Assembly (NCBI GenBank): GCA_951812955.1
Contig: OX638340.1
Location: forward strand, 2,560,001 to 2,624,000
DNA: 64,000 nucleotides
DNA from: an uncultured Gemmatimonadota bacterium
GTDB lineage: Bacteria > JAAXHH01
Reading direction: 5' to 3'
The number at the start of each line of letters is the position of its first letter. Position 1 is the first letter of the stretch. Both the position numbers and the translations under genes were made by a program. The notes below the pieces were generated by a model that searched no databases, had not been told where the DNA came from, and saw nothing but the letters and a program-made list of their open reading frames with translations. Below, one piece after another: positions 26,555 to 43,104 of this stretch.

Positions 26555-27271
26555 TCATATGCGGCGCAGCAGGCGCTGCAGGCGCAGCCACCAGACGATC
26601 CATACCGCCTCGTTGATCACGCCCTGGGAGAGTTTCGATGTGCCTGATCGCCGGTCTACGAAGATAATGGGGATTTCACGCAGGCGATATCCCTTTCGCC
26701 AGCACCGGAAATTCATCTCGATCTGGAAGGCGTATCCGTCGGACCGGACTTCATCCAGCTCGATGTGTTCCAATACTTCGCGGCGGAAGCACTTGTATCC
26801 GCTGGTGGTGTCCCGGATCGTCATCCCCGTGACCAGTCGAGTGTAAATGTTGGCGAAGTAGCTGAGCAGTAACCGGGACATGGGCCAGTTTACCACGTTG
26901 ATGCCGCTGATGTACCGGGATCCGATCACCACGTCGCAGGACGCGATCTCTTCGATGAACCGCGGAACCATGGCGGGATCGTGGGAAAAGTCCGCGTCCA
27001 TCTCGAATACGCAGTCCACGTCCTGTTGGATAGCGTACCTGAAACCCGCAACGTAAGCCGATCCGAGTCCGAGTTTGCCGGGTCGATGCAGGACGCTGAT
27101 CCGTTCATTCTCCGCGGCAAGTTCATCGGCCAGTTTCCCCGTCCCGTCCGGCGAGTTGTCATCCACCACGAGCACGCGGATATCCGGACTCAATGCCATT
27201 AACTCGGGCAAAAGCCGGCGGATGTTCTCGAGCTCGTTGTAGGTGGGGACGATGATCAGGGTTTTCATCAT
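26555..27271 (-). CDS. GT2 polyprenol-phosphate glycosyltransferase (Dpm1/Ppm1/GtrB-like)
   Basis: 238 aa. LIIVPTYNELENI, VLVVDDNSPDGT, HRPGKLGLGSAYVAGF, EMDADFSHDP. Confidence 0.85.
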   Translation of the reverse strand: MMKTLIIVPTYNELENIRRLLPELMALSPDIRVLVVDDNSPDGTGKLADELAAENERISVLHRPGKLGLGSAYVAGFRYAIQQDVDCVFEMDADFSHDPAMVPRFIEEIASCDVVIGSRYISGINVVNWPMSRLLLSYFANIYTRLVTGMTIRDTTSGYKCFRREVLEHIELDEVRSDGYAFQIEMNFRCWRKGYRLREIPIIFVDRRSGTSKLSQGVINEAVWIVWWLRLQRLLRRI

Positions 27272-27286
27272 TTTACGGTTCCGGTG

Positions 27287-29746
27287 TCAGGCCCGGGCCT
27301 TCAGGCGTTTTCTGATGTGCATCGCACCCGCTGAAATCAACCCGGCGAGGATCAGTGCGCTGGCGATCCGGCTTATCAGGAGGCCCGTGGCGAAGGAAGC
27401 GGGGGCGAAAGTCATCACCACGTCATGACGGCCTTCGGGTACGGCCACGGAGCGAAGGACGTAGTTGGTCTTGTGTATTTCCGCCGGCTGGCCGTCAATC
27501 TCGGCGCTCCATCCTGCCGGATAATAGATCTCGCTGAGCACCAGCAAACAAGATGAGGCCGCATCCACTGCCATCTCGATACGGTGCGGTGAGTGCAGGG
27601 TGATCTCCACGGACGAGTCGCCCGCCGGACCGAGCCGTTCCTGGAGAGGTTCTTCCACGATTGCGTATTTGCCGGGATTGAACCCCGGGTCGCTCAGCGC
27701 TTCGAAGATGGCGTCCTTCCCGGCAATGACGCGCACACTGTCCACCAGGAAGGCCCGCGGCAGCGCGTCGTCGTTCCGATACAGGTATCCACCGTCGGTT
27801 TCGGCCACGGGTGCGAGCGCGGCTTCAGGGAGCGGCTGTCGAGACACCAGGTAACGGGTATTCAGCATGTTCAGAACCGGAAAGGAACTGAGTCCCACCT
27901 GGTCCATGAGTTCCTGGTAGATGCCCAACTTGGCGGCGTGGTAGCCGCCAATACTGGATATCCCGAAGTATCCGTATTCATTCGAAGAGAACTCGGAGAG
28001 CGGCAGGATGCGGTACAGGCTTGTGTCGTCTTCCAGGGCTTTCACAATTTCGTTGTCTCGGGCGGTGTAATAGGCTTCGATCCGCGCGGGATCATCTTGG
28101 GGGTTCACGATCCGCGAGGCCACGAGCGATAGATCGATGGAGACGAGTATGCATACGCCCGCGGCAAACAGTGACGGGCTCATCTTTCGGGTGGCGAAAA
28201 GCAGCGCCGCAGCCGCGCAGAGGAACAATGCCATGGTCCACAGATCGCCCATGAACAGGTCGAATCGCATGGCGTTGAGCCTGGCATGGTAGTCCACGTT
28301 GTCCAGGAGGGCCGCGCGCGAACCATGGGCCGCATCCGCCTGCGAATAGACGCCCGTCATGAAGGACTGGAAGGAGGACTCGAATACGGTCAGTACCAGG
28401 ACCAGCAGGAGGACTCCGCCGGCTACGCAGCACAGTTTTTTCGCGAAGCTCCCCAGGCTGTCCCGGCCGGCACGTATCCGTTCGATCACCGCGTGCACGC
28501 CGTATCCCGCCAGCAGGGCTGCCGCGAACTGCAGGATCACCAGGATCATGACCGGCGCGCGGAACTTGCCGAAGAAGGGGACGAAGTGGAGCATGACGTA
28601 GGACAGGGGAGGCAGGTGCCGTCCGAAGGAGACCAGAAGGGCCAGCACGGCCGCCAGGACGAGAAACAGGGTCATGCGCGAACTTCGCAGCAAGAAGCCC
28701 GCCAGGGCCAGGACAACGACGACGACGCCCAGGTAGTTCGGGAAATCCGTGAAGGGCATTTCTCCCCAGTAGAAGAGACCGCCGAACCCGGCGAAGGAAG
28801 GGATGATGAAGGTCAGTACTTCGATGGGAGGGAACGACCAGCTCGTGGCGAAGGGGACGTTGACGCCGCTACCGCCGACTGAGAGGCCCCGAGCGGAATA
28901 CTGCGCGTATTCCTGCATGGGAAAGACCAGCACCGCCGCGACGGCGACGGCCAGGACGATACCGCCCACAAAGAGACCGGATTTTCGCAGTATCTCGCGT
29001 GCAGGAGTCCTGTCCCTCCATTCATTGATTACGGCGTATGCGGCGTACAGGCCGATCAGCATGGCCGTGTAGAAGGCGATCTGGGGATGAAAGGAACACA
29101 ACTGCGAGCCGAACGCGCCTCCGAGCAATACCATGTCGAACACCCCGCCGCGATCAAATACGCGGTAGGCTGCCAGGAAGACGAGGGGGACATGCATGAA
29201 GCAGATGAACCGGTTCGCGTGTTCCGTGGCCATCATGTGGGTGGAAAACACGAAGGCCGCCGCCGCGACGAAAGACGCGGGCCTGGAGAGCGACAAGGTT
29301 CGCGCCAGAAGAAACATGGAAACCGCGCCGAGGAGCAGGTGGAAGAAGAAACGGCCGTGCAGCGCGCTGACGAGCCGGTCCGGCAGGACGGCATTGACCA
29401 GGGCTTCGTAGCTGTATTGTAGATGGTGGTACGTGCCGCTGGCCTGGAAGGGCATGCCGCCGAAGATGTGGGGGTACCAGAGGGGCGTTTCGCCGGATCC
29501 GCTTTTAAAGTCCTGCGCGAAGCGGTCGAAGGGAATGGCCTGGCCAATGAAATCGGGCCTGATGTCCATCTTCCCGTCGATGATATAGCCGCGGTACACG
29601 AATACGGCCAGCACCGCGATGATCAGGCAGAACAGGGCGTCCTGGACCAACGGATGCAGGCTTCGGTCCGCGCGCTCCCGACGGCTATCGTCCCGTCCGC
29701 GGATTCGGCGCTGTTCAGATCGTGGTGGGTTTCGCTGCTTCGCCAT
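27287..29746 (-). CDS. YfhO-family polytopic membrane protein (putative GT-C-type glycosyltransferase)
   Basis: 819 aa. About 13 TM segments in the first ~520 aa, then a soluble C-terminal domain and a final TM. N-terminal PLWYPHIFGGMPFQASG resembles the YfhO family. Called from architecture and this motif only. Confidence 0.7.
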   Translation of the reverse strand: MAKQRNPPRSEQRRIRGRDDSRRERADRSLHPLVQDALFCLIIAVLAVFVYRGYIIDGKMDIRPDFIGQAIPFDRFAQDFKSGSGETPLWYPHIFGGMPFQASGTYHHLQYSYEALVNAVLPDRLVSALHGRFFFHLLLGAVSMFLLARTLSLSRPASFVAAAAFVFSTHMMATEHANRFICFMHVPLVFLAAYRVFDRGGVFDMVLLGGAFGSQLCSFHPQIAFYTAMLIGLYAAYAVINEWRDRTPAREILRKSGLFVGGIVLAVAVAAVLVFPMQEYAQYSARGLSVGGSGVNVPFATSWSFPPIEVLTFIIPSFAGFGGLFYWGEMPFTDFPNYLGVVVVVLALAGFLLRSSRMTLFLVLAAVLALLVSFGRHLPPLSYVMLHFVPFFGKFRAPVMILVILQFAAALLAGYGVHAVIERIRAGRDSLGSFAKKLCCVAGGVLLLVLVLTVFESSFQSFMTGVYSQADAAHGSRAALLDNVDYHARLNAMRFDLFMGDLWTMALFLCAAAALLFATRKMSPSLFAAGVCILVSIDLSLVASRIVNPQDDPARIEAYYTARDNEIVKALEDDTSLYRILPLSEFSSNEYGYFGISSIGGYHAAKLGIYQELMDQVGLSSFPVLNMLNTRYLVSRQPLPEAALAPVAETDGGYLYRNDDALPRAFLVDSVRVIAGKDAIFEALSDPGFNPGKYAIVEEPLQERLGPAGDSSVEITLHSPHRIEMAVDAASSCLLVLSEIYYPAGWSAEIDGQPAEIHKTNYVLRSVAVPEGRHDVVMTFAPASFATGLLISRIASALILAGLISAGAMHIRKRLKARA

Positions 29747-29825
29747 GAATATCCTTTAGCGGACTGTTTCTGCGCTTCGCAATGAATACCCTATAACGGC
29801 CTGTTGCTGCGATATGAATGGCGGG
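29745..29825. repeat. degenerate tandem copies of the yfhO start region (ATGAAT-initiated units at 29745, 29782, 29814 on the plus strand)
   Basis: ATGAATATCCTTTAGCGGACTGTTTCTGCGCTTCGCA / ATGAATACCCTATAACGGCCTGTTGCTGCGAT / ATGAATGGCGGG. The first unit abuts the yfhO start codon (CAT at 29744-29746). Confidence 0.7.
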
Positions 29826-29878
29826 AACATCCGATTAAATCAATCGATTAAAGCAAACGGTAAATTCTGCTGGTTAAA

Positions 29879-30802
29879 TCAACGAGTATTCGAGGTGATC
29901 GGGGTAGCGAAGCCTTCCCAAATCCCTCGATGGAGCGCGCCCAGGTGGCCCCACCTGCGACGGATGACCAAGATAGCCGCCGACCGAAGATAACGATACA
30001 GAAAAAGGTAAGGCAGGAACGCGAACAGAAACTGCGGAAGCGGCACGTGTTTTCTCGCAAACAGAATCCTGCTGCGTATCATGTGACGCATATAGAATGG
30101 ACTGTTGAAACCGGCCGTCCGTGACCCCTTGTGGTGGACAACGGCCTTTGGCTCCAAAAGCAATCTATATCCGGCTTCCCGCACCTTCATTCCCCAGTCG
30201 AAGTCGTCGAAATAGCAAAAATAATCTTCGTCCATCAGTCCGACCTTCTCCAGGACAGCGCGCTTGACGAGGAGTGCAGTTCCCGTGATGTACGGCATCT
30301 CGGTCGAGGAATCGAACTGCCCCCTGTCCTCTTCCCCGTGACCCAGAAGAAACCCCTGCGCCAGCCACGGGATGGTGCGTGTACCTGCCGAGTCGAGCAC
30401 GCGTTCCTCTCCATACTTGTAGATCTTCGGTCCGGCCATGCCTATATCGCTGGAGCGTTCCGCCGCTCGAACAAGGTTGGCCAATACGTCTGGCTCCACG
30501 ACGGTGTCGTTGTTCAGCAGGAACACGTAATCGGCGTCTTTTGAAAGGGCATGGCGCATGCCCTGGTTGCTACCACGGACGAATCCCCTGTTTTCGGCGT
30601 TACGAATCAGCGTCAAAGGGAGGTTTTCACGCCCCCACCGCTCGATGGCATCAGGCGAGCCGTCTGTCGATCCATTGTCCACAACAATGACCGAAAAGGA
30701 CGGGTAGTCTATACGCGCCAGTGATTCGAGGCACTCCAGCGTATCCGCTTCCCGGTTCCAGTTGAGTATGACGATGGCGACGTGGGGAAGTGATAGACTC
30801 AT
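29879..30802 (-). CDS. GT2-family glycosyltransferase
   Basis: 307 aa. VAIVILNWNREADTLECLESL, VIVVDNGSTDGS, LLNNDTVV, MDEDYFCYFDDFDW. Confidence 0.8.
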   Translation of the reverse strand: MSLSLPHVAIVILNWNREADTLECLESLARIDYPSFSVIVVDNGSTDGSPDAIERWGRENLPLTLIRNAENRGFVRGSNQGMRHALSKDADYVFLLNNDTVVEPDVLANLVRAAERSSDIGMAGPKIYKYGEERVLDSAGTRTIPWLAQGFLLGHGEEDRGQFDSSTEMPYITGTALLVKRAVLEKVGLMDEDYFCYFDDFDWGMKVREAGYRLLLEPKAVVHHKGSRTAGFNSPFYMRHMIRSRILFARKHVPLPQFLFAFLPYLFLYRYLRSAAILVIRRRWGHLGALHRGIWEGFATPITSNTR

Positions 30803-35998: not shown

Positions 35999-37474
35999 TC
36001 AGATGCCCCGATTTCCCGCTAACCATTTCATCAGGCCTTCAGCGGGCAATTCGGATTTCAGGATGGGCGTCCGTACGCCCTGGGTCCGCAGCAGGGCTTC
36101 GGCGCCCTGGTAACCGCTGCGCACCGCGCTTTCCATGGTAGCCGGCCAGCCCGTCTGTACCCAGTCGCCGGCGAGGAAGAAATTGGAAAGGGGACTGGAT
36201 GGACCGGGGCGCAGTGCGTCGCAACCGGGGTTGGGCGCGAACGTCGCCCTGCCCTCCTTGACGACGATGGCCTTGAGCAGTTCTGCCTGGCGTACGGCGG
36301 GCAGCAGGGACCTGAGATCTTCCATGGCCTGATCGATGATCATCTGTCGCGGCATTTTCATCCATTCATCGGAAGCACTGACTACGAGTCCGAGATAGGC
36401 TCCGTCGTTTTCCATGGCGTTGGTCCCGTCGTTTTCCACGGAGTTGGCTCCGGAGTGCCGATTGGACTGGTTGAATATCCACTGTATCCTCCTTCCGATC
36501 ACCGCGGCGTAGTCCAGTTCCGTCACGGGCCGGTCGAACCAGACGTGGACGGCCGTGATGGGAGAAACCGACAGCCCGGCAAGCATCGCGAAGTAGGGAT
36601 TCGAGGCTTGGCTTTGCGGCAGCAGCCGGCACAAAACATCGAATGGCAGGGCCGAAAGGTATGCCCCGGCCTCGACGGTCGAACCGTCCTGCAGCGAGAT
36701 GGAAGCCACCTTGCCGCCGTGGACGGCAATGCCGGTAACGCCCCGGTTGAACACGACGCGGCCGCCCCGCCGTTCGATGTAATCTATGCACGGCGCGTAC
36801 AGGTCTCCCAGCGGAACGGCGGGCAGCCCCACCTCGTACCCTCGGCGATTGATCAGAAAGGCCCGAACGGCCGTCCCGATTCCGTAATCGGCATCGATGT
36901 CGTCCAGTTCATCGTTGAGCGCACTGATTAGAAAGGGTTTCCAGAAGGCTTCGATGGCCCGCTTCGTTGCGCCGTGGGCTAGAAGCCAGGCAGACATGGA
37001 AACCGGAGACGGTGCTTCGGCGGCCTGATGTGTTTCCGGATAGCCGGTATTCCGTGATCTCATGACGTGGCGGACCATGCCGGCCACGGTGCGGACGATC
37101 GACAGCTTGTCCCGGATTCCCATCGTTTTAAGCCGGAGGAACGATGGAAGCAGGTGCAGGGGCGCGGGGAGACCCGAGGGCCCGATGACCGAAACGCGGT
37201 TGGACTCGTCGATGAATGGAATGGTCTCGTGAAAGTCGATATGGTTCGCGACGCCGAGACGGTCGTAGAAGTCCAGGAGGTTAACACAGCAGCCCAGGAG
37301 CACGTGCTGGCAGTTGTCCACCCGCTCGCCGCTTGACGGGTGTATGAAGGAGGTGGCGCGGCCGCCCAGGATTGGACGTCTTTCGTACAGTTCGACCTCG
37401 AAACCGGCATCGGCCAGCGCAACCGCGCCGGCCAGTCCAGCCAGCCCGCCACCGATTACGATTACCTGGCTCAT
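35999..37474 (-). CDS. hpnE: hydroxysqualene dehydroxylase (FAD-dependent amine-oxidase family)
   Basis: In-frame ATG (MSQVIVIGGGLAGLAGAVALADAGFEVELYERRPILGGRA) forming an ATGA overlap with the hpnD stop (TCAT at 37471-37474). C-terminal FLAGDW...ATMESAVRSG. Immediately follows two squalene/phytoene-synthase paralogs. Confidence 0.8.
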   Translation of the reverse strand: MSQVIVIGGGLAGLAGAVALADAGFEVELYERRPILGGRATSFIHPSSGERVDNCQHVLLGCCVNLLDFYDRLGVANHIDFHETIPFIDESNRVSVIGPSGLPAPLHLLPSFLRLKTMGIRDKLSIVRTVAGMVRHVMRSRNTGYPETHQAAEAPSPVSMSAWLLAHGATKRAIEAFWKPFLISALNDELDDIDADYGIGTAVRAFLINRRGYEVGLPAVPLGDLYAPCIDYIERRGGRVVFNRGVTGIAVHGGKVASISLQDGSTVEAGAYLSALPFDVLCRLLPQSQASNPYFAMLAGLSVSPITAVHVWFDRPVTELDYAAVIGRRIQWIFNQSNRHSGANSVENDGTNAMENDGAYLGLVVSASDEWMKMPRQMIIDQAMEDLRSLLPAVRQAELLKAIVVKEGRATFAPNPGCDALRPGPSSPLSNFFLAGDWVQTGWPATMESAVRSGYQGAEALLRTQGVRTPILKSELPAEGLMKWLAGNRGI

Positions 37475-38406
37475 ACGCGCTTTCGGATCAGCGCCCGGGC
37501 CGTGATGGAGATTTTCTTCCATGGGGACAGGCCGATGCGCTGGCTATACACGTCGTACTGGCGACGGGGGATTTCTTCAAGGCACGCCCGGTAGATGCCG
37601 ATCATGGCCGCCAGACACGCCCTGCTTGAGAACTGAACCTTCGGAAGGAGCGGCAGCGCTGCGTCGTAGTAGCTTCTGGCGCGTTCCACCTGGAATTCCA
37701 TCAGTCGCCGGAACGAATCGTCTAAAAGTCCGTTCCGCAGACGTTCCTCCGGGTACCCGAAGGCGTCAAGGTCCTCCTGCGGCAGGTAGATACGGCCCAT
37801 CCCCGCGTCCTCCCTCAGGTCGCGCAGTATATTTGTCAGCTGAAAGGCGATGCCACAGGACTCGGCGTGTTTTTTGGCTTCCGCGCCATTGAATCCGAAG
37901 ATGTGTATGCACACCAGTCCGACGGCGGAAGCCACGCGGTAGCAGTACTGGTAAAGTTCTTCGAAGGTGGCGTAACGCGTCACCGTAAGGTCCATTTGCG
38001 CGCCGTCGATAATGGCGTCGAAGTACGCTCTCGGGATGTCGTATCTCCCCACCGTGTCCCTGAATGCCGGCAACAGCCCGCGGACGTCGGGCGGTGTTTC
38101 GCCATAGGCGTCGGCCGGTGGTCCGTCATATGCGTCGGGCGGTGGTCCGTCATAGGCGCGGTCCAGGGACTCGCGGCAGGCGTTCAACCGGTTTTCCTTG
38201 TCCGCCTCCCCGGCCTCCTCGTCGACGATGTCGTCGCAGTAGCGCATGAAGGCGTACACGGCGCACATGGCCCGTCGCCGTTCAGCCGGCAGGACGATAA
38301 AGGAATAGTAGAAGTTCTTAGCCCTCGATTTCGCGATTTCGCGGCAGAAATCATAGGAGCGCTTCAACGATTCCGGATCGGCAGATTGTTTTTTCACAGG
38401 GTTCAT
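37471..38406 (-). CDS. hpnD: presqualene diphosphate synthase
   Basis: 311 aa. SRAKNFYYSFIVLPAERRRAMCAVYAFMRYCDDIVDE (first Asp-rich motif), TNILRDLREDAGMGRIYLP (second motif). Confidence 0.82.
   Translation of the reverse strand: MNPVKKQSADPESLKRSYDFCREIAKSRAKNFYYSFIVLPAERRRAMCAVYAFMRYCDDIVDEEAGEADKENRLNACRESLDRAYDGPPPDAYDGPPADAYGETPPDVRGLLPAFRDTVGRYDIPRAYFDAIIDGAQMDLTVTRYATFEELYQYCYRVASAVGLVCIHIFGFNGAEAKKHAESCGIAFQLTNILRDLREDAGMGRIYLPQEDLDAFGYPEERLRNGLLDDSFRRLMEFQVERARSYYDAALPLLPKVQFSSRACLAAMIGIYRACLEEIPRRQYDVYSQRIGLSPWKKISITARALIRKRV
38106..38153. repeat. in-frame 24-nt tandem duplication inside hpnD encoding YDGPPPDA / YDGPPADA
   Basis: Plus-strand copies AGGCGTCGGCCGGTGGTCCGTCAT (38106-38129) and ATGCGTCGGGCGGTGGTCCGTCAT (38130-38153). 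Confidence 0.9.
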
Positions 38407-38475
38407 GACAACGGCGTTCCATCGTTACGTACAACGAGCACGGTTCGACGAGTACGGTTCGACGCGCACGACCCA

Positions 38476-39435
38476 CTAAGGGGTCGCGGACGGTCCGGTC
38501 CGGTTCCAGATCCGTTTCAGTGCGTATTTCACAAACAGGCTGGTCTTTCGGGCGGGCGACAGGGTGGGCCGACTGGACAGCACGTCGTAACGCCGTCTTT
38601 CGATCTGGTCGAGCAGGGCGGAGCCACAGCGGTTGAACAGTTCGATGTCCAGCCGGACCCGCCCGTCCAACATCCCGCACAACCCGAGCCCCTCATCGAA
38701 CAGCGCTCGCGTCCTGTTCACCTGGTACGCCATCAGTCTCCTGAAACGCTCGTCGACGACCCCGGCCTCGAGGTCCGCCTCGGTGTAATGGTACCGATCC
38801 AGGTCCTCCTGGGGCAAGTAGATCCTGCCTTTTTCCAGGTCCACCCTGACGTCCTGCCAGAAGTTGGCCAGCTGGAGCGCGGTACACGTAGCGTCGGAAA
38901 GGACCTGGCGTTCATTGTCCCGGTGGCCGCACAGGTAGAGCACGAGGTGGCCCACCGGATTGGCGGAGTACCGACAGTATTCGAGCACATCCGCGTAGGT
39001 CCTGTAACGCGTTACGACCTGGTCTTGCCGGAACGCGGTCAGCAAGTCTCGAAACGGGGTTATGGGTATCTCGAATCGGTCGATCGTCTCCCGGAGGGCG
39101 ATGAATACCGGATGCCGGGCGCTACCGTCGTAACAGGCCTGCAACTCGGCGTCCCACCAATCGAGCAGTTCCAGGGAAAGGCCGGTATCGCCGGTTTCGT
39201 CGGCGAGGTCGTCGGACCACCGGCAGTAGGCGTAGACATGGTAGAAGTGCTGCCGCAGCGCGGTGGGCAGGAACCGGGAAACGACAATGAAATTCTCGTA
39301 GTGCTGGCGTGCGAGGTGGCTGCAGTACCGGGTAGCGGACGCCAGGGAGGCGTCGCCGGCGCCGGGCAGCGCGTCGAGGGCGAGGTGATCGAACCGGCGC
39401 ATGGCTTCAGGCAGGTAGTCGGGTAGCTGGGACAT
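38476..39435 (-). CDS. hpnC: hydroxysqualene synthase
   Basis: 319 aa. QHYENFIVVSRFLPTALRQHFYHVYAYCRWSDDLADE; ANFWQDVRVDLEKGRIYLP. Paralog of the next gene, at the head of the hpnCDE trio. Confidence 0.82.
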   Translation of the reverse strand: MSQLPDYLPEAMRRFDHLALDALPGAGDASLASATRYCSHLARQHYENFIVVSRFLPTALRQHFYHVYAYCRWSDDLADETGDTGLSLELLDWWDAELQACYDGSARHPVFIALRETIDRFEIPITPFRDLLTAFRQDQVVTRYRTYADVLEYCRYSANPVGHLVLYLCGHRDNERQVLSDATCTALQLANFWQDVRVDLEKGRIYLPQEDLDRYHYTEADLEAGVVDERFRRLMAYQVNRTRALFDEGLGLCGMLDGRVRLDIELFNRCGSALLDQIERRRYDVLSSRPTLSPARKTSLFVKYALKRIWNRTGPSATP

Positions 39436-39495
39436 GGCCGGTTCGCGTACCCCTCGTTCTCGTTCCGGCCATGGTTCAGCCGGGATTACGCCGCT

Positions 39496-40143
39496 CTATC
39501 CGCCGCTGCAGGCGAATTCCAGTACGAGTTCCTCTTCGAGACGGTATTCGATGAGGTCCTTGATTGTGGCGATCTTCAGATGATGCTCTTCGGCGATTTC
39601 GATCAACCGGGGAAGACGGGCCATGGAGCCGTCCACATCCAGCACCTCGCACAGGACGCCCGCGGGGTAAAGGCCGGCCAGCCTCATCAGGTCGACCGTG
39701 GCCTCGGTGTGTCCGTCCCTTTCCAGCACGCCTCCGTCCCGTGCCTGCAACGGGAAGAGATGTCCCGGCCGTTCGAAGTCTTCCGGCGCCGTATCCGGGC
39801 TCACGAACAACTGGGCGCTGATCGCCCTGTCATGGGCGGAAATGCCGGATGTCACGCCGTTTACGGCATCTACGGACACCGTGAAGGGCGTGTCCGCGAT
39901 CGACGTCTTTCCGTTGACCATGATCGGAATATCCAGCTCTTCAAGCCGCTGCTTCGTGGTGGGCAGACAGATCAGTCCCCGTCCATGCCTCGCCATGAAG
40001 TTGATGATTTCGGGCGTGACTCTCTCGGCGGATACCATGAAGTCGCCCTCGTTCTCGCGGTTTTCGTCGTCGATGACGATCAGTACACGTCCCGCCCTGA
40101 CTTCTTCCACGGCTTCGGGAATGGTACAGAAATGGGATAACAT
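39496..40143 (-). CDS. ribB: 3,4-dihydroxy-2-butanone-4-phosphate synthase (stand-alone, no GTP cyclohydrolase II domain)
   Basis: 215 aa. VLIVIDDENRENEGDFMVSAE, GRGLICLP, ISAHDRA, GHLFPL, RDGGVLERDGHTEA. SD GGGGGGTAGGAG upstream. Confidence 0.9.
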   Translation of the reverse strand: MLSHFCTIPEAVEEVRAGRVLIVIDDENRENEGDFMVSAERVTPEIINFMARHGRGLICLPTTKQRLEELDIPIMVNGKTSIADTPFTVSVDAVNGVTSGISAHDRAISAQLFVSPDTAPEDFERPGHLFPLQARDGGVLERDGHTEATVDLMRLAGLYPAGVLCEVLDVDGSMARLPRLIEIAEEHHLKIATIKDLIEYRLEEELVLEFACSGG

Positions 40144-40350
40144 GCTCCTACCCCCCTTTTCTCGGGTTTAATAAAACATGAACGATACGGTCTCACAATC
40201 GGATTCGCAACCTGGTGGAAGATTAGACTTATGCTCATAGGGGGATTATATTCATTACTGGTATGGAATGCATGAGGTCCCAGTGAGTATTCTGTGAGCA
40301 ATGTGTGAATACTTCGATTTTCGCTACGAAATTCATCCACTGAGCCCCGA

Positions 40351-43104
40351 ATGACGCAACAGACCGCCGCCAAAGGCTTCCGATTCGACGACTTTGTGCT
40401 GGACGTCCAGAACCGCCAGGTTCGACGGAAAGATTCCGTGCTGCCCTTGAGTTCCAGGTATTTCGACGTATTGGTGCTGCTGGTATCCAATGCGGGGCAG
40501 TTGGTGGAGAAAAACCGCATCTTCGACGAAGTCTGGGAAGACGTGATCGTCAGCGATACGGCGCTGACCCAGTGTATCAAGTCGATCCGAAAACAGTTGA
40601 AGGACGACGCGTCGAACCCCAGATACGTCAAAACGGTGCCCAAACACGGATACGTCTTCATCGGCGACGCGGTGGAGATCCCCGAAGAACTTTCCGCGCC
40701 GTCCGTTCAAGGCAAGCCGCCCCGTCCGTACAAGTTCCTCGACTACTATACCGAAAACGACCAGGGCCTGTTCTTCGGCCGCGAGGAGGAGATCGAGAAC
40801 ATCTGCTCCCGCATCCTTGCCCGGCGCTCGTTTCTCCTCTACGGCCGTTCCGGTGTCGGTAAGAGTTCGATTCTACGAGCCGGCGTTATCCCCCGGTTGC
40901 ACGGCCAGGGACATAAAGCGTGTATCATCCGGAGTTTTACCGACCCGTTGCAGCACATGCAACGCATGGTCCGGCGGCTCGTCACCGGTAACGGCGAGGG
41001 CGACGTTGATCCGGACGGTGATGCTCTCGGGGACTTGCTTCACCGCCGATGGTCCGATTCATCGTCCCGGATCGTCGTCATGCTGGACCAGTTCGAAGAG
41101 TTTTTTCTCCTGCTCGATGACGGGGGCCGGCAGGCGTTTATCGATGAACTCGGTGCGATCATGGAGGACGACGAGCTGCCGTTGCAGTTCGTATTCGTGA
41201 TGCGTGAGGACATGCTGGCGGAGATGAGCCGACTCAAGCCGGTGGTACCGGAGATCTTCCACCATGAGTGCCGGCTCGGCCGACTGACGCCCGAACAGGC
41301 CGCCCGGGCCATAACGGGTCCTGCGTGGCGGGTAGGATGCCGGTTTGAAGACATGCTCGTCGACCGCCTGTTGGAGGATCTCTCCGACCAGGACTCTGTC
41401 GACCCGCCCCACCTGCAGATCGTGTGCGACACGCTGTACGATCAGCGCGATGAGAGAAACCTGATCACGGAATCGGCCTATGACCGTCTGGGCGGCGCTT
41501 CACAGATCCTGGCCGACTACCTCTCCCGGGTGCTCCGCCGGTTTTCAGCGGCCGACCTGTCCGTGGTGCAGCAGGTGCTTCTGGCGCTCATTTCCGCGGA
41601 CGAACGGCTCATCGTGGTGCGGGAGGCCGAATTGCTTTCGCGAATCCGGACCGGCGACCGGTACGACGACAATGCCCTAGAAAAACTGCTCGGCGAACTG
41701 GTTGACGCCCGTATCGTCAGGCGTCGAAACCAGGAAGGTGAAGGATGGCTTGAACTCGCCCACGAATGCTTGATTCCGGAGGTGTCCCGCTGGCTGACCA
41801 ATAGCGTTTACGAAGCAAAACAGGCCCGCAGCCTGCTCGAGCGGTCGGTGGAGAATTACCGTACCTACCAGCTCATCATGGACCGTGAAAGTCTGGATCT
41901 GCTTTCGCCCTACCTGGAAGAAATCGGGGTTTCCGGCCATGAAGCGTACCTGCTTTGCATCAGTCTGCTCAACAGGGACCGGCCGGTGCCGGGCTGGCTG
42001 GTTGAAAGGGTGCCGGACGCGCTGAACGTGATCCTGGATGCCACGTACAACGATCGCCAGGAAGTACGCCAGCGGGCGGTGGAGTCCTCCCGGCCCGTGC
42101 GCTGCGCGGCGCTGAACAACCGGCTGAGACACCTTGCGTTGCGGGATCACGAGCTGAAGGTACGCAGGGCGGCCAGCATCGAGCTGGCGGACTGGTTCGG
42201 CTCGGCCGTGGAATCGATTCTGACCCGTCCCACGGGCAACGAGTCCGTGAGCCGCCTGCAGCGCGCGGTCAGCCTGGCGTTTCTGAGGGAACAGAACCGT
42301 TCATTCAAACTTTCCCGGCTGTACCGCGTTATGGTGATGGTCGGTTTCATACTGATGCGCCTGCAACAGGGCGGGATCGACATCATGCAACAGGGGATCG
42401 GCGGAACATTCGGCGGCGCCGTGTCCGGCCTGCTTGGCGGGCTTCTCCTGGGAACCGCACTCGCCGCGGCCGGTTCCGGCCTGCCGTCGGAAGCCCTCTC
42501 ACCCATTTTCGTCCTGGCGGGCCTGGGCCTGTTCGGCGGCGTTTTCGGCGGCGCGGGCGTATCCTTCGGCATGGTCGCGCTGCGGCGCGTATCGAGGATT
42601 TACAGCCGATGGCTCGGCGTATTGGGCGGCGCGCTGGGCGGCGGCCTGGTAGGCGCCGCATTCAATCTCTTCAGTTCCGATACCCTGGAAACCCTGTTCG
42701 GCCGACATCCCGCGGGTCTTACCGGTGGCCTCGAAGGCGCCCTGATCGGGACGGGGGTAGCCCTTGGTCCGGTCGTCACGTATTACCTGGCCGGGCGGTC
42801 CGGGCAGTGGCGAAGCTTTCTCAACATCGTCTTCGGCGCACTGGGAGGCATGATCGCCAGTATCGTCCTGACCGTGATGGGAGGCAGCATGTTCACGGCC
42901 AGCCTGGAGACGCTGCGGCAGTCCTTCGATGCGTCGCAGATACGGCTCGAAACCATCGCGACGATCTTCGGAGAAGGCGAATTCGGCCGCACCACACAGG
43001 TCGCCCTGGGCGCCCTGGAGGGACTGCTCTTCGGTGGCGGCGTTTCGGCCGGCATCGAAACTTTCACCCGCTCGAGGGAGCGGGTCGAGAGACGGTACGA
43101 GTAA
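40351..43104 (+). CDS. multidomain protein: OmpR/PhoB-type winged-helix DNA-binding domain + STAND-like P-loop NTPase + HEAT-like repeats + C-terminal glycine-zipper polytopic membrane domain
   Basis: 917 aa. wHTH FRFDDFVLDVQNRQVRRKDSVLPLSSRYFDVLVLLVSNAGQLVEKNRIFDEVWEDVIVSDTALTQCIKSIRKQL...PRYVKTVPKHGYVFIG. Then PYKFLDYYTENDQGLFFGREEEIENICSRILARRSFLLYGRSGVGKSSILRAGVIPRL (Walker A) and RIVVMLDQFEEFF (Walker B-like). HEAT-like DRQEVRQRAVESS...LRDHELKVRRAASIELADW. The last ~280 aa hold 6-7 Gly-rich hydrophobic segments (GIGGTFGGAVSGLLGGLLLGTALAAAG, FVLAGLGLFGGVFGGAGVSFGMVAL, LGVLGGALGGGLVGAAF...). Confidence 0.7.
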   Translation: MTQQTAAKGFRFDDFVLDVQNRQVRRKDSVLPLSSRYFDVLVLLVSNAGQLVEKNRIFDEVWEDVIVSDTALTQCIKSIRKQLKDDASNPRYVKTVPKHGYVFIGDAVEIPEELSAPSVQGKPPRPYKFLDYYTENDQGLFFGREEEIENICSRILARRSFLLYGRSGVGKSSILRAGVIPRLHGQGHKACIIRSFTDPLQHMQRMVRRLVTGNGEGDVDPDGDALGDLLHRRWSDSSSRIVVMLDQFEEFFLLLDDGGRQAFIDELGAIMEDDELPLQFVFVMREDMLAEMSRLKPVVPEIFHHECRLGRLTPEQAARAITGPAWRVGCRFEDMLVDRLLEDLSDQDSVDPPHLQIVCDTLYDQRDERNLITESAYDRLGGASQILADYLSRVLRRFSAADLSVVQQVLLALISADERLIVVREAELLSRIRTGDRYDDNALEKLLGELVDARIVRRRNQEGEGWLELAHECLIPEVSRWLTNSVYEAKQARSLLERSVENYRTYQLIMDRESLDLLSPYLEEIGVSGHEAYLLCISLLNRDRPVPGWLVERVPDALNVILDATYNDRQEVRQRAVESSRPVRCAALNNRLRHLALRDHELKVRRAASIELADWFGSAVESILTRPTGNESVSRLQRAVSLAFLREQNRSFKLSRLYRVMVMVGFILMRLQQGGIDIMQQGIGGTFGGAVSGLLGGLLLGTALAAAGSGLPSEALSPIFVLAGLGLFGGVFGGAGVSFGMVALRRVSRIYSRWLGVLGGALGGGLVGAAFNLFSSDTLETLFGRHPAGLTGGLEGALIGTGVALGPVVTYYLAGRSGQWRSFLNIVFGALGGMIASIVLTVMGGSMFTASLETLRQSFDASQIRLETIATIFGEGEFGRTTQVALGALEGLLFGGGVSAGIETFTRSRERVERRYE

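What the first reader, a model, noticed from the sequence alone, without database searches (positions are those of the whole stretch)
40351..43104. Orphan 917-aa fusion: OmpR-type winged helix + STAND-like NTPase + HEAT repeats + glycine-zipper polytopic membrane domain
Seen in sequence:
- Residues ~10-105 read as an OmpR/PhoB (trans_reg_C) winged helix.
- Residues ~125-300 carry the 'PY.(F/G)L..Y.E.D...FFGRE..I..L...L....LL.G.SG.GKSS..RAG' lead-in, Walker A (GRSGVGKS) and a 'VVMLDQFEEFF' Walker-B block, which I associate with STAND / 'novel STAND' NTPases.
- HEAT-like repeats follow.
- The last ~280 aa contain 6-7 hydrophobic, extremely Gly-rich (GxxxG-zipper) segments.

Known relatives cover only parts of this architecture. 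AfsR/SARP-type regulators have wHTH + NB-ARC + TPR and are soluble. ToxR/CadC-type regulators have wHTH + one TM + a periplasmic sensor. STAND NTPases fused to membrane-perturbing effectors are a theme in prokaryotic conflict (NLR/Avs-like) systems.

Inference: a DNA-binding head, an NTP-driven switch and a polytopic glycine-zipper tail in one chain imply one of two things. It could be a membrane-tethered, NTP-gated transcription factor, or a STAND sensor whose output is membrane permeabilisation.

The gene is monocistronic. It sits between housekeeping ribB and thiL and is preceded by a 207-bp GC-poor spacer.
Basis: partly seen in the sequence, partly recalled or inferred. Interest (0 to 1): 0.7.

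Follow-up and report, generated by a model that had tools for sequence, protein, structure and literature searches.

The report
Membrane-embedded NTPase-gated transcription regulator family
This gene is not an orphan: it encodes a conserved membrane-embedded DNA-binding regulator with an NTP-driven switch that, in five bacterial lineages, sits beside a conserved 11-bp-repeat DNA site and beside genes that make isoprenoid membrane lipids, which points to an undescribed envelope or lipid control circuit rather than a phage-defence toxin.

Summary
The 917-aa ORF (40351-43104, +) is real. Its architecture is confirmed as an N-terminal OmpR/ToxR-type winged helix, an nSTAND1 NTPase with invariant Walker A and B motifs, an alpha-helical (HEAT-like) repeat region, and a glycine-rich six-TM domain with predicted N-in/C-in topology. 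"Orphan" is wrong: full-length relatives occur in 202 species genomes.

Three new findings change the interpretation:
- The Gly-rich TM domain is also fused directly to the same type of wHTH, with no STAND module, in a large family of about 355-aa proteins.
- A 3-4x TGAG direct-repeat array with 11-bp period (window 40273-40309) lies upstream of the gene in 72 of 83 loci across all lineages, against about 0.002 expected per locus.
- In 58 of 64 loci the divergent upstream genes are FPP-consuming isoprenoid enzymes: hpnCDE (behind ribB) in the window lineage and uppS in the others. Where another gene is inserted, the array stays next to uppS.

There is no defence-island context and no PADLOC match.

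Best reading: a membrane-integral STAND-gated transcription factor, like AfsR or MalT but anchored like ToxR, that autoregulates and probably controls isoprenoid-lipid genes. The signal it senses is unknown. No description of it was found in the searchable literature.

The parts
40351..43104 (+). Whole gene: 917-aa wHTH - nSTAND1 - helical repeats - 6TM protein
   Evidence: ORF; Pfam; homologs
40378..40665 (+). OmpR/ToxR-type winged helix-turn-helix (residues ~10-105; Pfam match 31-103)
   Evidence: Trans_reg_C E 7.8e-18. Best NCBIfam partial matches are the CadC and HilA N-termini. Foldseek finds ToxR 8b4b with TMt 0.87 at 33% identity, plus RstA and CadC.
40726..41853 (+). nSTAND1 NTPase module (residues 126-501)
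   Evidence: PF20703 E 3.2e-62. Foldseek hits include Orc1/Cdc6, Apaf-1, CED-4 and Avs4/Avs5.
40843..40869 (+). Walker A GRSGVGKSS (residues 165-173)
   Evidence: G165, R166, S167, G168, G170, K171, S172 and S173 are invariant in 83 sequences
41074..41100 (+). Walker B VVMLDQFEE (residues 242-250)
   Evidence: D246, Q247, F248 and E249 are invariant
41854..42300 (+). Alpha-helical repeat (HEAT-like) region, residues ~502-650
   Evidence: AF2 helices 484-648. HEAT_2 is weak at E 0.16. Several homologs carry PF13646.
42316..42369 (+). Hydrophobic/amphipathic helix 656-673 flanked by Arg; probably interfacial and not membrane-spanning
   Evidence: It is absent from the short wHTH-TM forms. A spanning helix here would place the wHTH outside the cell. 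It carries about 3 K+R residues.
42394..43068 (+). Gly-rich six-TM domain (TM 682-707, 716-744, 754-775, 791-813, 823-845, 883-906), with predicted N-in/C-in topology and a conserved periplasm-side loop at 846-882
40273..40309 (+). Operator-like direct-repeat array, TGAG-N7-TGAG-N7-TGAG-N7-TGAA (11-bp period). A degenerate TGGA lies 9 bp upstream at 40264.
   Evidence: It is unique in the 64-kb window, with 0 of 100 shuffles matching. It is conserved in the clade alignment. With up to 1 mismatch it is present upstream of 72 of 83 homolog loci, against about 0.002 expected.
40224..40252 (+). Sigma-70-like promoter candidate, TAGACT-17-TATATT; it would place the repeat array just downstream of the transcription start
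   Evidence: Consensus scan (not significant on its own). Both hexamers fall in blocks invariant across 15 genomes.
40191..40199 (-). Single inverted copy of the repeat unit (ATTGTGAGA on the minus strand), 48-56 bp upstream of the ribB start
   Evidence: These are invariant columns in alignment A5. It matches the unit consensus TTGTGAGAA. Its function is inferred only.
35999..40143 (-). Divergent co-directional run ribB (39496-40143), hpnC (38476-39435), hpnD (37471-38406), hpnE (35999-37522); the candidate regulated unit
   Evidence: NCBIfam gives HpnC 341.8 bits (cut-off 250), HpnD 284.1 (cut-off 278.6) and HpnE 429.3 (cut-off 283). The same arrangement is found in all loci of the window clade and the 55-62% clade that have enough upstream sequence.

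Best explanation
The gene encodes a membrane-integral, one-component transcription factor. The six-TM glycine-rich domain anchors it in the cytoplasmic membrane, with both ends of that domain in the cytoplasm. The N-terminal ToxR/OmpR-type winged helix, the nSTAND1 NTPase and the helical repeats are all cytoplasmic.

By analogy with the STAND regulators AfsR, MalT and GutR, the NTPase and repeat module probably keeps the DNA-binding head autoinhibited. A signal, most plausibly read by the TM domain or its conserved periplasm-side loop, would then allow NTP-dependent activation or oligomerisation. Side-by-side winged helices would then occupy the tandem TGAG repeats, one protomer per 11-bp repeat, in the gene's own 5' region and divergent promoter.

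The regulated genes are the regulator itself and, most likely, the divergent unit encoding FPP-consuming isoprenoid-lipid enzymes. That unit is ribB-hpnCDE (squalene synthesis) here and uppS (undecaprenyl-diphosphate synthase) in other phyla.

Shown:
- the architecture and its conservation;
- a topology consistent with the positive-inside rule;
- co-occurrence of the repeat array with the gene;
- synteny with the isoprenoid genes.

Inferred:
- actual DNA binding;
- the direction of regulation;
- the role of NTP;
- the nature of the signal.
For: Architecture: Pfam finds Trans_reg_C plus nSTAND1. The Walker A and B motifs are invariant. The AF2 models support the domain layout.

Membrane domain:
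- The six-TM N-in/C-in model gives a 3.4-fold K+R excess in the cytoplasmic loops across 83 sequences.

The wHTH and TM domain form a unit. A profile of the TM domain finds 415 representative proteins. These include a large class of about 350-390 aa proteins, and all 10 of those tested are Trans_reg_C directly followed by this domain.

Cis-element:
- TGAG-N7-TGAG-N7-TGAG is unique in the window, with 0 of 100 shuffles matching.
- An exact triple lies within -250..+30 of the gene start in 54-55 of 83 loci, and in 72 of 83 with up to 1 mismatch. The background is 0.006-0.007 per kb per strand.
- It is found in all five lineages sampled: the window clade, the 55-62% clade, Blastocatellia, KSB1-like and Calditrichota.
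- The leader RNA is no more stable than shuffled sequence (z +0.69), and there is no Rfam hit.

Target link:
- Of 64 species loci with at least 3.5 kb of upstream sequence, 38 have uppS and 20 have hpnCDE within 3.5 kb on the opposite strand.
- The intergenic distance to uppS is often only 125-230 bp.
- Where a radical-SAM gene is inserted, the perfect array stays at the 5' end of uppS or DUF4352-uppS.
- An unbiased Pfam tally of neighbours in 16 diverse loci is topped by Prenyltransf, SQS_PSY and Amino_oxidase.

Precedent: the AfsR afs box is two 11-bp direct repeats, each bound by one OmpR-type domain. AfsR is autoinhibited by its C-terminal NOD/TPR and activated by ATP (PMC10936776).
Against: - There is no experimental evidence. 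DNA binding to the TGAG array is inferred from co-occurrence only.
- In the window clade the array lies downstream of the best promoter candidate, which fits autorepression better than activation of the divergent unit. Only a single inverted half-site lies near ribB.
- A PWM scan finds no second full site in the 64-kb window.
- ribB (riboflavin) or an ADH gene lies between the regulator and hpnC.
- 6 of 64 loci lack an isoprenoid neighbour. In some of those the array fronts a UPF0047/YjbQ gene instead.
- Short-form wHTH-TM genes have unrelated neighbours, and only 1 of 5 has the array.
- Synteny among related phyla may partly reflect shared ancestry.
- The full-length AF2 pTM is only 0.50, so the inter-domain arrangement is unknown.
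- No dedicated topology predictor was available.
Confidence: 0.6

Rival explanations
1. It is a membrane-anchored STAND transcription factor that binds the TGAG array, but only to autoregulate or to control genes elsewhere. On this view the adjacency to uppS and hpnCDE is inherited gene order with no regulatory meaning.
For: In the window clade the array is closest to the regulator's own start and lies downstream of its promoter candidate. Metagenome hits also place the array in front of unrelated genes: a PF00144 beta-lactamase-family gene paired with a 356-aa coiled-coil protein, a subtilase, and UPF0047. 6 of 64 loci lack isoprenoid neighbours.
Against: Two different FPP-consuming systems (uppS and hpnCDE) occupy the same divergent position in different lineages. 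The perfect array remains with uppS when the regulator is displaced 1.7-1.9 kb by an inserted gene. The other flanking genes are not conserved between phyla, whereas this pairing is.
Confidence: 0.25
2. It is an NLR/Avs-like conflict system. On this view the STAND module senses an invader and the glycine-zipper domain oligomerises into a membrane pore (abortive infection), with the wHTH serving as an accessory or sensor.
For: nSTAND1 was defined in conflict systems (PMC8195603). Foldseek lists Avs4, Avs5 and Apaf-1 among the NTPase matches. GxxxG-rich helices can form pores (general knowledge).
Against: There is no PADLOC hit. Only 1 of 16 loci has a genuine defence system (a Type II R-M) within 5 kb, which is not distinguishable from the 1.5% null used in PMC13581612. 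The whole length is conserved at about 50% identity across phyla, each retained locus lies in a different species record, and synteny is stable. The TM domain also occurs fused to the wHTH alone. Its fold resembles carriers and ECF S-components. A conserved operator-like array is present.
Confidence: 0.04
3. The TGAG array is not this protein's binding site. It would instead be a site for another factor (for example an alternative sigma factor or a second regulator) or an RNA-level leader element that happens to accompany the gene.
For: In most phyla the array lies only 18-45 nt from the start codon and always on the sense strand, which would also suit a 5'-UTR element. No binding data exist.
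Against: An 11-bp period with 3-4 tandem units is the geometry bound by OmpR-type domains (AfsR paper). The leader shows no excess RNA stability and has no Rfam family. Extra copies occur in antisense-divergent positions upstream of uppS with no sense-strand gene following. The wHTH recognition helix is nearly invariant across the same lineages.
Confidence: 0.07

Closest known systems
ToxR / CadC / TcpP-type membrane-bound one-component regulators
   Same: Both have an N-terminal cytoplasmic OmpR-type wHTH followed by a membrane anchor in one chain. ToxR is the best structural match for the wHTH (8b4b, TMt 0.87, 33% identity), and CadC is the best NCBIfam partial match. Both use direct-repeat DNA sites.
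   Different: Those proteins have a single TM helix and a folded periplasmic sensor. This one has about 540 cytoplasmic residues (STAND NTPase plus helical repeats) and a six-TM glycine-rich domain with only short loops.
AfsR (SARP-NOD-TPR), and more loosely MalT and GutR: soluble STAND transcription activators
   Same: AfsR has the same module order: an N-terminal OmpR-type DNA-binding domain, a STAND NTPase and helical repeats. Its operator is built from 11-bp direct repeats. Autoinhibition by the C-terminal modules is relieved by ATP (PMC10936776).
   Different: This protein has no BTAD domain, the NTPase belongs to the nSTAND1 clade rather than NB-ARC or MalT, the repeats are HEAT-like rather than TPR/SUPR, and it ends in a polytopic membrane domain. 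The taxa and the linked genes are also different.
nSTAND1-containing conflict systems (Kaur, Burroughs, Iyer and Aravind, eLife 2021)
   Same: They share the NTPase clade (PF20703, 211.8 bits).
   Different: Those proteins carry effector or EAD domains (TIR, caspase, trypsin) and variable sensors (FGE/CLec, WD40) in conflict neighbourhoods. This family has a DNA-binding head, conserved repeats, a TM domain and core-metabolism neighbours.
Uncharacterised ~355-aa 'wHTH + Gly-rich 6TM' proteins (e.g. Sphingomonas gilva, Altererythrobacter sp. Root672)
   Same: They have the same wHTH type and a homologous TM domain (E down to about 1e-40 against the domain profile). One locus has the same TGAG array (L093).
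   Different: They lack the STAND and repeat modules and helix 656-673. Their neighbourhoods are variable, and 4 of 5 loci have no array. They are annotated only as 'transcriptional regulator'.
Mitochondrial carrier, ECF-transporter S-component and Tim17/22/NDUFA11 folds (for the TM domain only)

Membership tests
OmpR/PhoB-type winged helix (Pfam Trans_reg_C, PF00486) | Profile match above the gathering threshold | tested here: met
   64.8 bits against a cut-off of 26.2, residues 31-103
OmpR/PhoB-type winged helix (Pfam Trans_reg_C, PF00486) | wHTH fold superposable on DNA-bound family members | tested here: met
   ToxR 8b4b TMt 0.87 with rmsd 1.5 A; RstA 4nhj TMt 0.87; CadC 5ju7 TMt 0.83
Two-component response regulators | N-terminal receiver (Response_reg) domain | tested here: not met
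   There is no receiver hit. The wHTH is at the extreme N-terminus, and NCBIfam response-regulator models match only their C-terminal parts, far below cut-off.
nSTAND1 NTPase (PF20703) | Profile match above threshold over the full domain | tested here: met
   211.8 bits against 27.1; profile positions 1-369 of 379
nSTAND1 NTPase (PF20703) | Conserved Walker A GxxxxGK[ST] and Walker B hhhhD | tested here: met
   G165..K171-S172 and D246 are invariant in 83 sequences
nSTAND1 conflict / NLR-Avs-like defence systems | Defence-model match, immune effector domain, or enrichment of defence genes nearby | tested here: not met
   PADLOC gives 0 hits for the protein. Only 1 of 16 diverse loci has a real defence system within 5 kb. 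Neighbours are dominated by isoprenoid enzymes.
ToxR/CadC-type membrane-bound regulators | N-terminal cytoplasmic wHTH followed by a membrane anchor | tested here: met
ToxR/CadC-type membrane-bound regulators | Single TM helix plus a folded periplasmic sensor domain | tested here: not met
   Six TM helices. The largest outside loop is 37 residues, and about 540 cytoplasmic residues lie between the wHTH and the membrane.
AfsR / large SARP regulators | BTAD domain after the wHTH; NB-ARC-type NOD; TPR sensor | tested here: not met
   There is no BTAD, NB-ARC or TPR hit at E<=1. The NOD is nSTAND1.
AfsR / large SARP regulators | Operator made of tandem 11-bp direct repeats | tested here: inconclusive
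   A conserved 11-bp-period TGAG array accompanies the gene. Binding was not tested.
HEAT repeats (PF13646 HEAT_2) | Profile match above threshold | tested here: inconclusive
   The query scores 12.7 bits against a cut-off of 27.7. About a dozen homologs have precomputed hits. AF2 shows an all-alpha repeat region.
Known glycine-zipper / small Gly-rich membrane families in Pfam | Any profile match | tested here: not met
   The C-terminal 282 aa, scanned at E<=10, gives only sub-threshold hits to 7TM-7TMR_HD (E 0.013) and Pam17 (E 0.043).
Polytopic inner-membrane protein (generic) | Multiple hydrophobic helices obeying the positive-inside rule | tested here: met
   Six segments have mean KD 1.0-1.95. 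K+R is 0.24 per residue in the inside loops against 0.07 in the outside loops over 83 sequences. A dedicated predictor (DeepTMHMM) was not available.

The most novel reading that the evidence does not exclude
This is a feedback sensor for membrane isoprenoid lipids. The six-TM glycine-rich domain, with its conserved intramembrane Glu residues and periplasm-side loop, would read the level of a polyprenyl lipid or a related envelope state (for example undecaprenyl phosphate, or squalene- or hopanoid-derived lipid). The STAND NTPase would convert that reading into oligomerisation of the winged helices on the TGAG array. The array sets transcription of the committed FPP-consuming enzymes: uppS in Blastocatellia, KSB1 and Calditrichota, and hpnCDE in the window lineage. 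That would make it the first STAND NTPase whose input is a membrane-embedded signal and whose output is transcription. Functionally it would be a bacterial counterpart of sterol-sensing transcriptional feedback.
Probability: 0.25. Interest if true: 0.85.

Novelty: new variant of a known kind. Interest (0 to 1): 0.66.

Why it matters
STAND NTPases in bacteria are currently studied almost entirely as phage sensors, and the few known STAND transcription factors (MalT, GutR, AfsR) are soluble. This family would add a membrane-integral STAND regulator with an identifiable operator and a coherent candidate regulon.

How bacteria set the supply of undecaprenyl phosphate and other FPP-derived membrane lipids at the transcriptional level is, to my knowledge, poorly understood. 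A dedicated regulator paired with uppS or hpnCDE across five lineages gives a concrete, testable entry point.

The finding also defines a new six-TM domain family. The domain has no Pfam model and a confident AF2 fold, and it is found with the same wHTH in cultivable Sphingomonadales, which makes experiments feasible. It is also a caution against reading every nSTAND fusion as a defence gene.

Tried and rejected
- PADLOC on the protein gave no hits. PADLOC on 130 flanking ORFs gave only generic cross-hits plus one R-M system. The defence reading was therefore rejected.
- Pfam on the C-terminal part at E<=10 found no family.
- A PDB sequence-profile search with the TM domain gave only marginal NDUFA11 hits at E 0.4-0.7.
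- Rfam on 40000-40500 gave nothing relevant, and the leader RNA fold had z +0.69. The structured-RNA reading of the repeats was therefore rejected.
- A PWM scan of the 64-kb window for further operator copies found none beyond 40261-40317.
- Short-form wHTH-TM neighbourhoods (5 loci) showed no conserved partner, and only one had the array.
- In the internal-repeat test, hairpin 1 against hairpins 2 and 3 was not significant; only hairpins 2 and 3 are demonstrably homologous.
- An exact-sequence lookup of the window protein found it is not on record. The nearest relative is 99% identical (P0001).
- Literature searches for the architecture or for uppS or hpnCDE regulators found nothing relevant.
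- Whether the adjacent uppS is the only uppS in those genomes could not be checked.


Full report
1. THE OBSERVATION

The ORF at 40351-43104 (+) exists, starts with ATG and encodes 917 aa. Pfam places Trans_reg_C at residues 31-103 (E 7.8e-18). It places nSTAND1 (PF20703) at residues 126-501 (E 3.2e-62), covering almost the whole profile and far above the curated cut-off. NCBIfam matches only the wHTH; the best partial matches are the CadC and HilA N-termini.

In an alignment of 83 homologs, the Walker A residues (G165, R166, S167, G168, G170, K171, S172, S173), the Walker B residues (D246, Q247, F248, E249) and an R285-E286-D287 block are invariant. The NTPase therefore looks functional.

Residues about 484-650 are all-helical in the AF2 model. 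HEAT_2 is sub-threshold in this protein (E 0.16) but is recorded for about a dozen homologs.

The last ~280 residues are 19% glycine with 21 GxxxG motifs and match no Pfam family even at E<=10. The 207-bp upstream spacer is GC-poor.

The protein is not an orphan. A search of 5.8 billion proteins returned 2464 hits. The 120 best are overwhelmingly full-length (about 900-970 aa) at 49-99% identity. They are annotated only as 'winged helix-turn-helix domain-containing protein' or 'transcriptional regulator'.

A scan of one genome per species found relatives in 202 species, and the 80 retained loci are all full-length or cut only by contig ends. By record title they come from:
- MAGs labelled Gemmatimonadota or Latescibacterota (80-96% identity to the window protein);
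- a 55-62% identity clade including Zixibacteria;
- Blastocatellia (Acidobacteriota);
- KSB1/Zhuqueibacter-like MAGs;
- Calditrichota (39-45% identity).

The whole length is conserved, including the glycine-rich tail, with a mean column identity of 60-64%. 'Monocistronic' is not established: thiL follows 158 bp downstream on the same strand with no terminator-like site between. Upstream, ribB is the first gene of a co-directional ribB-hpnC-hpnD-hpnE run. All three hpn genes score above NCBIfam equivalog cut-offs.

3. THE C-TERMINAL DOMAIN

No pore-forming toxin appears among them. A PDB sequence-profile search gives only marginal NDUFA11 hits.

A six-TM model (682-707, 716-744, 754-775, 791-813, 823-845, 883-906) with both ends in the cytoplasm fits the positive-inside rule across 83 sequences. 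K+R density is 0.24 per residue in the inside loops against 0.07 in the outside loops. The hydrophobic helix at 656-673 cannot span the membrane under this model, and it is absent from the short forms described below.

Hairpins TM3-4 and TM5-6 are homologous (hhalign 93%, E 5e-8), so the domain grew at least partly by duplication of a 2-TM unit. The most conserved polar features are two Glu residues within TM segments (E795, E890) and the predicted periplasm-side loop SLE..SF..SQIR.E...FGE..FG.TTQ.

4. THE wHTH AND THE TM DOMAIN FORM A UNIT

A profile of the TM domain searched against 1.84 billion representative proteins found 415 hits. Apart from the ~900-aa forms, there is a large class of 350-390-aa proteins with the domain at about residues 130-355.

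All ten tested consist of an N-terminal Trans_reg_C followed directly by this domain, with no NTPase. Thousands of such short forms exist, many in Sphingomonadales, including cultured Sphingomonas gilva and Altererythrobacter sp. Root672. All carry only generic annotation.

A DNA-binding head repeatedly wired straight to this membrane domain argues that the domain is the anchor or sensor of a transcription factor. It argues against the domain being a membrane-damaging effector, and it suggests the nSTAND1-repeat module is an insertion between the two.

5. A CONSERVED OPERATOR-LIKE ARRAY

Aligning the ribB-regulator spacer from 15 genomes of the window clade showed invariant blocks. One block is TGAG-N7-TGAG-N7-TGAG-N7-TGAA at 40273-40309. 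The exact triple occurs once in the 64-kb window and in none of 100 shuffles.

The same array, in the same orientation, lies 18-80 nt upstream of the gene in Zixibacteria, Blastocatellia, KSB1-like and Calditrichota loci. The consensus is roughly ATGAGnnnnnnGTGAGAAAnTTGTGAGAA, often with a further unit 9 bp upstream.

The counts are:
- 54-55 of 83 non-redundant loci have an exact triple within -250..+30 of the start;
- 72 of 83 have it with one mismatch allowed;
- the background is 0.006-0.007 per kb per strand, or about 0.002 expected per locus.

Tandem units with an 11-bp period are the geometry bound by OmpR-type domains. In AfsR, each of two 11-bp direct repeats is contacted by one protomer (PMC10936776). 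The leader is not an unusually stable RNA (z +0.69) and matches no Rfam family.

In the window, a sigma-70-like candidate promoter (TAGACT-17-TATATT, 40224-40252) lies in invariant blocks just upstream of the array. That position would suit autorepression. A single inverted unit (ATTGTGAGA on the minus strand, 40191-40199) is invariant 48-56 bp upstream of ribB.

6. A CONSERVED LINK TO ISOPRENOID-LIPID GENES

The gene is always divergent from the upstream genes.
- In the window clade and the 55-62% clade, the upstream genes are (ribB or an ADH gene)-hpnC-hpnD-hpnE.
- In Blastocatellia, KSB1-like and Calditrichota loci, the upstream gene is a cis-prenyltransferase that passes the TIGR00055 uppS cut-off. 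It is often directly adjacent, with an intergenic distance of 125-230 bp.

Of 64 species loci with at least 3.5 kb of upstream sequence, 38 have uppS and 20 have hpnCDE within 3.5 kb on the opposite strand. Six have neither, and one of those six has uppS at 5.4 kb.

Two unbiased analyses agree. Clustering of all flanking ORFs ranks uppS first (46 loci), then hpnE and hpnC/D. A Pfam tally over 130 neighbours from 16 diverse loci is headed by Prenyltransf, SQS_PSY and Amino_oxidase. Other neighbours are lineage-specific.

Where a B12-radical-SAM gene has been inserted between uppS and the regulator, the perfect array stays at the 5' end of uppS (or of DUF4352-uppS). The regulator keeps only a degenerate copy.

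A metagenome scan with a specific version of the array returned 73 matches:
- about 46 lie in regulator, uppS, DUF4352, UPF0047 or rSAM contexts;
- 13 lie between a PF00144 beta-lactamase-family gene and an uncharacterised 356-aa coiled-coil protein;
- 3-4 lie upstream of a subtilase.

The array therefore behaves like the operator of a small regulon. Both uppS and hpnD consume farnesyl diphosphate to make membrane polyisoprenoids (established biochemistry). That shared substrate is the common denominator of the two kinds of neighbour.

7. THE DEFENCE READING

The protein matches no PADLOC model. Among 130 flanking ORFs from 16 diverse loci, the only genuine defence system is one Type II R-M in L008; the other hits are generic cross-matches such as desaturases and sigma-54 activators.

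One locus in 16 cannot be distinguished from the 1.5% chance level used in a recent STAND survey. That survey also notes that non-defence STAND clades, including transcription factors, are interspersed with defence clades (PMC13581612).

nSTAND1 itself was described only in conflict systems, with TIR, caspase or trypsin effectors and variable sensors (PMC8195603). This family differs in every module other than the NTPase.

8. MECHANISM

The best-supported mechanism is a membrane-integral one-component regulator. The six-TM domain anchors it in the membrane and probably senses the signal. The nSTAND1-repeat module gates it, by analogy with AfsR, which is autoinhibited by NOD/TPR and activated by ATP. 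The winged helices then bind side by side on the TGAG array to control the gene itself and the divergent FPP-consuming unit.

Shown:
- the architecture, its conservation and a topology consistent with the positive-inside rule;
- co-occurrence of the array and the gene;
- synteny with the isoprenoid genes.

Inferred:
- DNA binding, the sign of regulation, NTP dependence and the signal.

Confidence in the composite statement is 0.6. It is higher (about 0.75-0.8) for 'membrane-anchored DNA-binding regulator' alone and lower (about 0.25) for a lipid signal specifically.

9. NOVELTY

All the modules other than the TM domain are known kinds. Both membrane-bound wHTH regulators (ToxR, CadC) and STAND transcription factors (AfsR, MalT, GutR) are established.

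What is new is the combination:
- a previously undefined six-TM domain;
- a predicted operator conserved across five lineages;
- a consistent pairing with uppS or hpnCDE.

Literature searches found no description of any of these. This is a new variant of a known kind. If the lipid-feedback reading holds, it would be considerably more than that.

Noticed in passing
window 26555-30802 (-): A GT2 (238 aa), a YfhO-family membrane protein (819 aa) and another GT2 (307 aa) lie on the same strand about 5-10 kb beyond hpnE. From general knowledge, GT2 (CsbB/GtrB-like) plus YfhO pairs use polyprenyl-phosphate-linked sugars. That is a second polyprenyl-lipid-dependent function near the regulator.
   Followed up: partly
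L001 6393-7868 (-); also L046, L051, L054, L063, L064, L071, L074, L076, L082: In a subset of Blastocatellia, a B12-binding radical-SAM gene (~490 aa) is inserted between uppS and the regulator. It has only weak similarity to HpnJ, HpnR and BchE, far below their cut-offs. The perfect TGAG array stays on the uppS side.
   Followed up: partly
metagenome loci L100, L107, L118, L120, L127, L129, L130, L132, L136, L148: The TGAG array, with a further repeat unit downstream (...TGAGAAAATCGGTCGTGAGAAG), lies 26 bp upstream of an uncharacterised ~350-aa coiled-coil protein with no Pfam family. It lies about 105 bp from a divergent PF00144 beta-lactamase-family serine hydrolase. These could be additional regulon members.
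   Followed up: partly
L005 6717-7193, L049, L056, L038, L051, L088: In loci without an adjacent uppS, the array fronts a UPF0047/YjbQ gene (Pfam). From memory, YjbQ proteins have been linked to thiamine-phosphate synthase activity, and in the window the gene downstream of the regulator is thiL. This may be coincidence.
   Followed up: no
L093 5963-6000 (short-form protein P0163): One 352-aa wHTH-6TM short form carries a 4x TGAG 11-bp array directly upstream of its start. Four other short-form loci, including cultured Sphingomonas gilva (L168), do not.
   Followed up: yes
[not shown]
   Followed up: partly
window 37471-37522: hpnD and hpnE overlap by 52 bp, and hpnC to hpnD and ribB to hpnC are separated by only about 60-70 bp. 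This suggests a single ribB-hpnCDE transcript. No squalene-hopene cyclase was identified in the ORFs checked between 26.5 and 36 kb.
   Followed up: partly
L047 13510-22497 (+): A ~3000-aa ORF lies about 0.8 kb downstream of the regulator in a KSB1-like MAG. It was not examined.
   Followed up: no
L008 12549-18754: A RelB antitoxin, a Type II R-M pair (CfrBI-like REase plus N6/N4 MTase) and an SNF2 helicase lie 2-8 kb downstream of the regulator in one KSB1 MAG. This is the only defence-like neighbourhood seen.
   Followed up: yes
window 40351-43101: The exact window protein is not on record in the assembly collection; the closest is 99% identical (P0001). Several close relatives come from MAGs with bin names such as APA_bin, IRC1_bin and SB0665_bin, labelled Gemmatimonadetes or Latescibacterota. 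Phylum labels are inconsistent for what is clearly one clade.
   Followed up: no
L003 7540-7890 (-): The 116-aa ORF between uppS and the regulator in a KSB1 MAG has a faint, sub-threshold SLATT_1 match (E 0.0055). It is probably meaningless.
   Followed up: no
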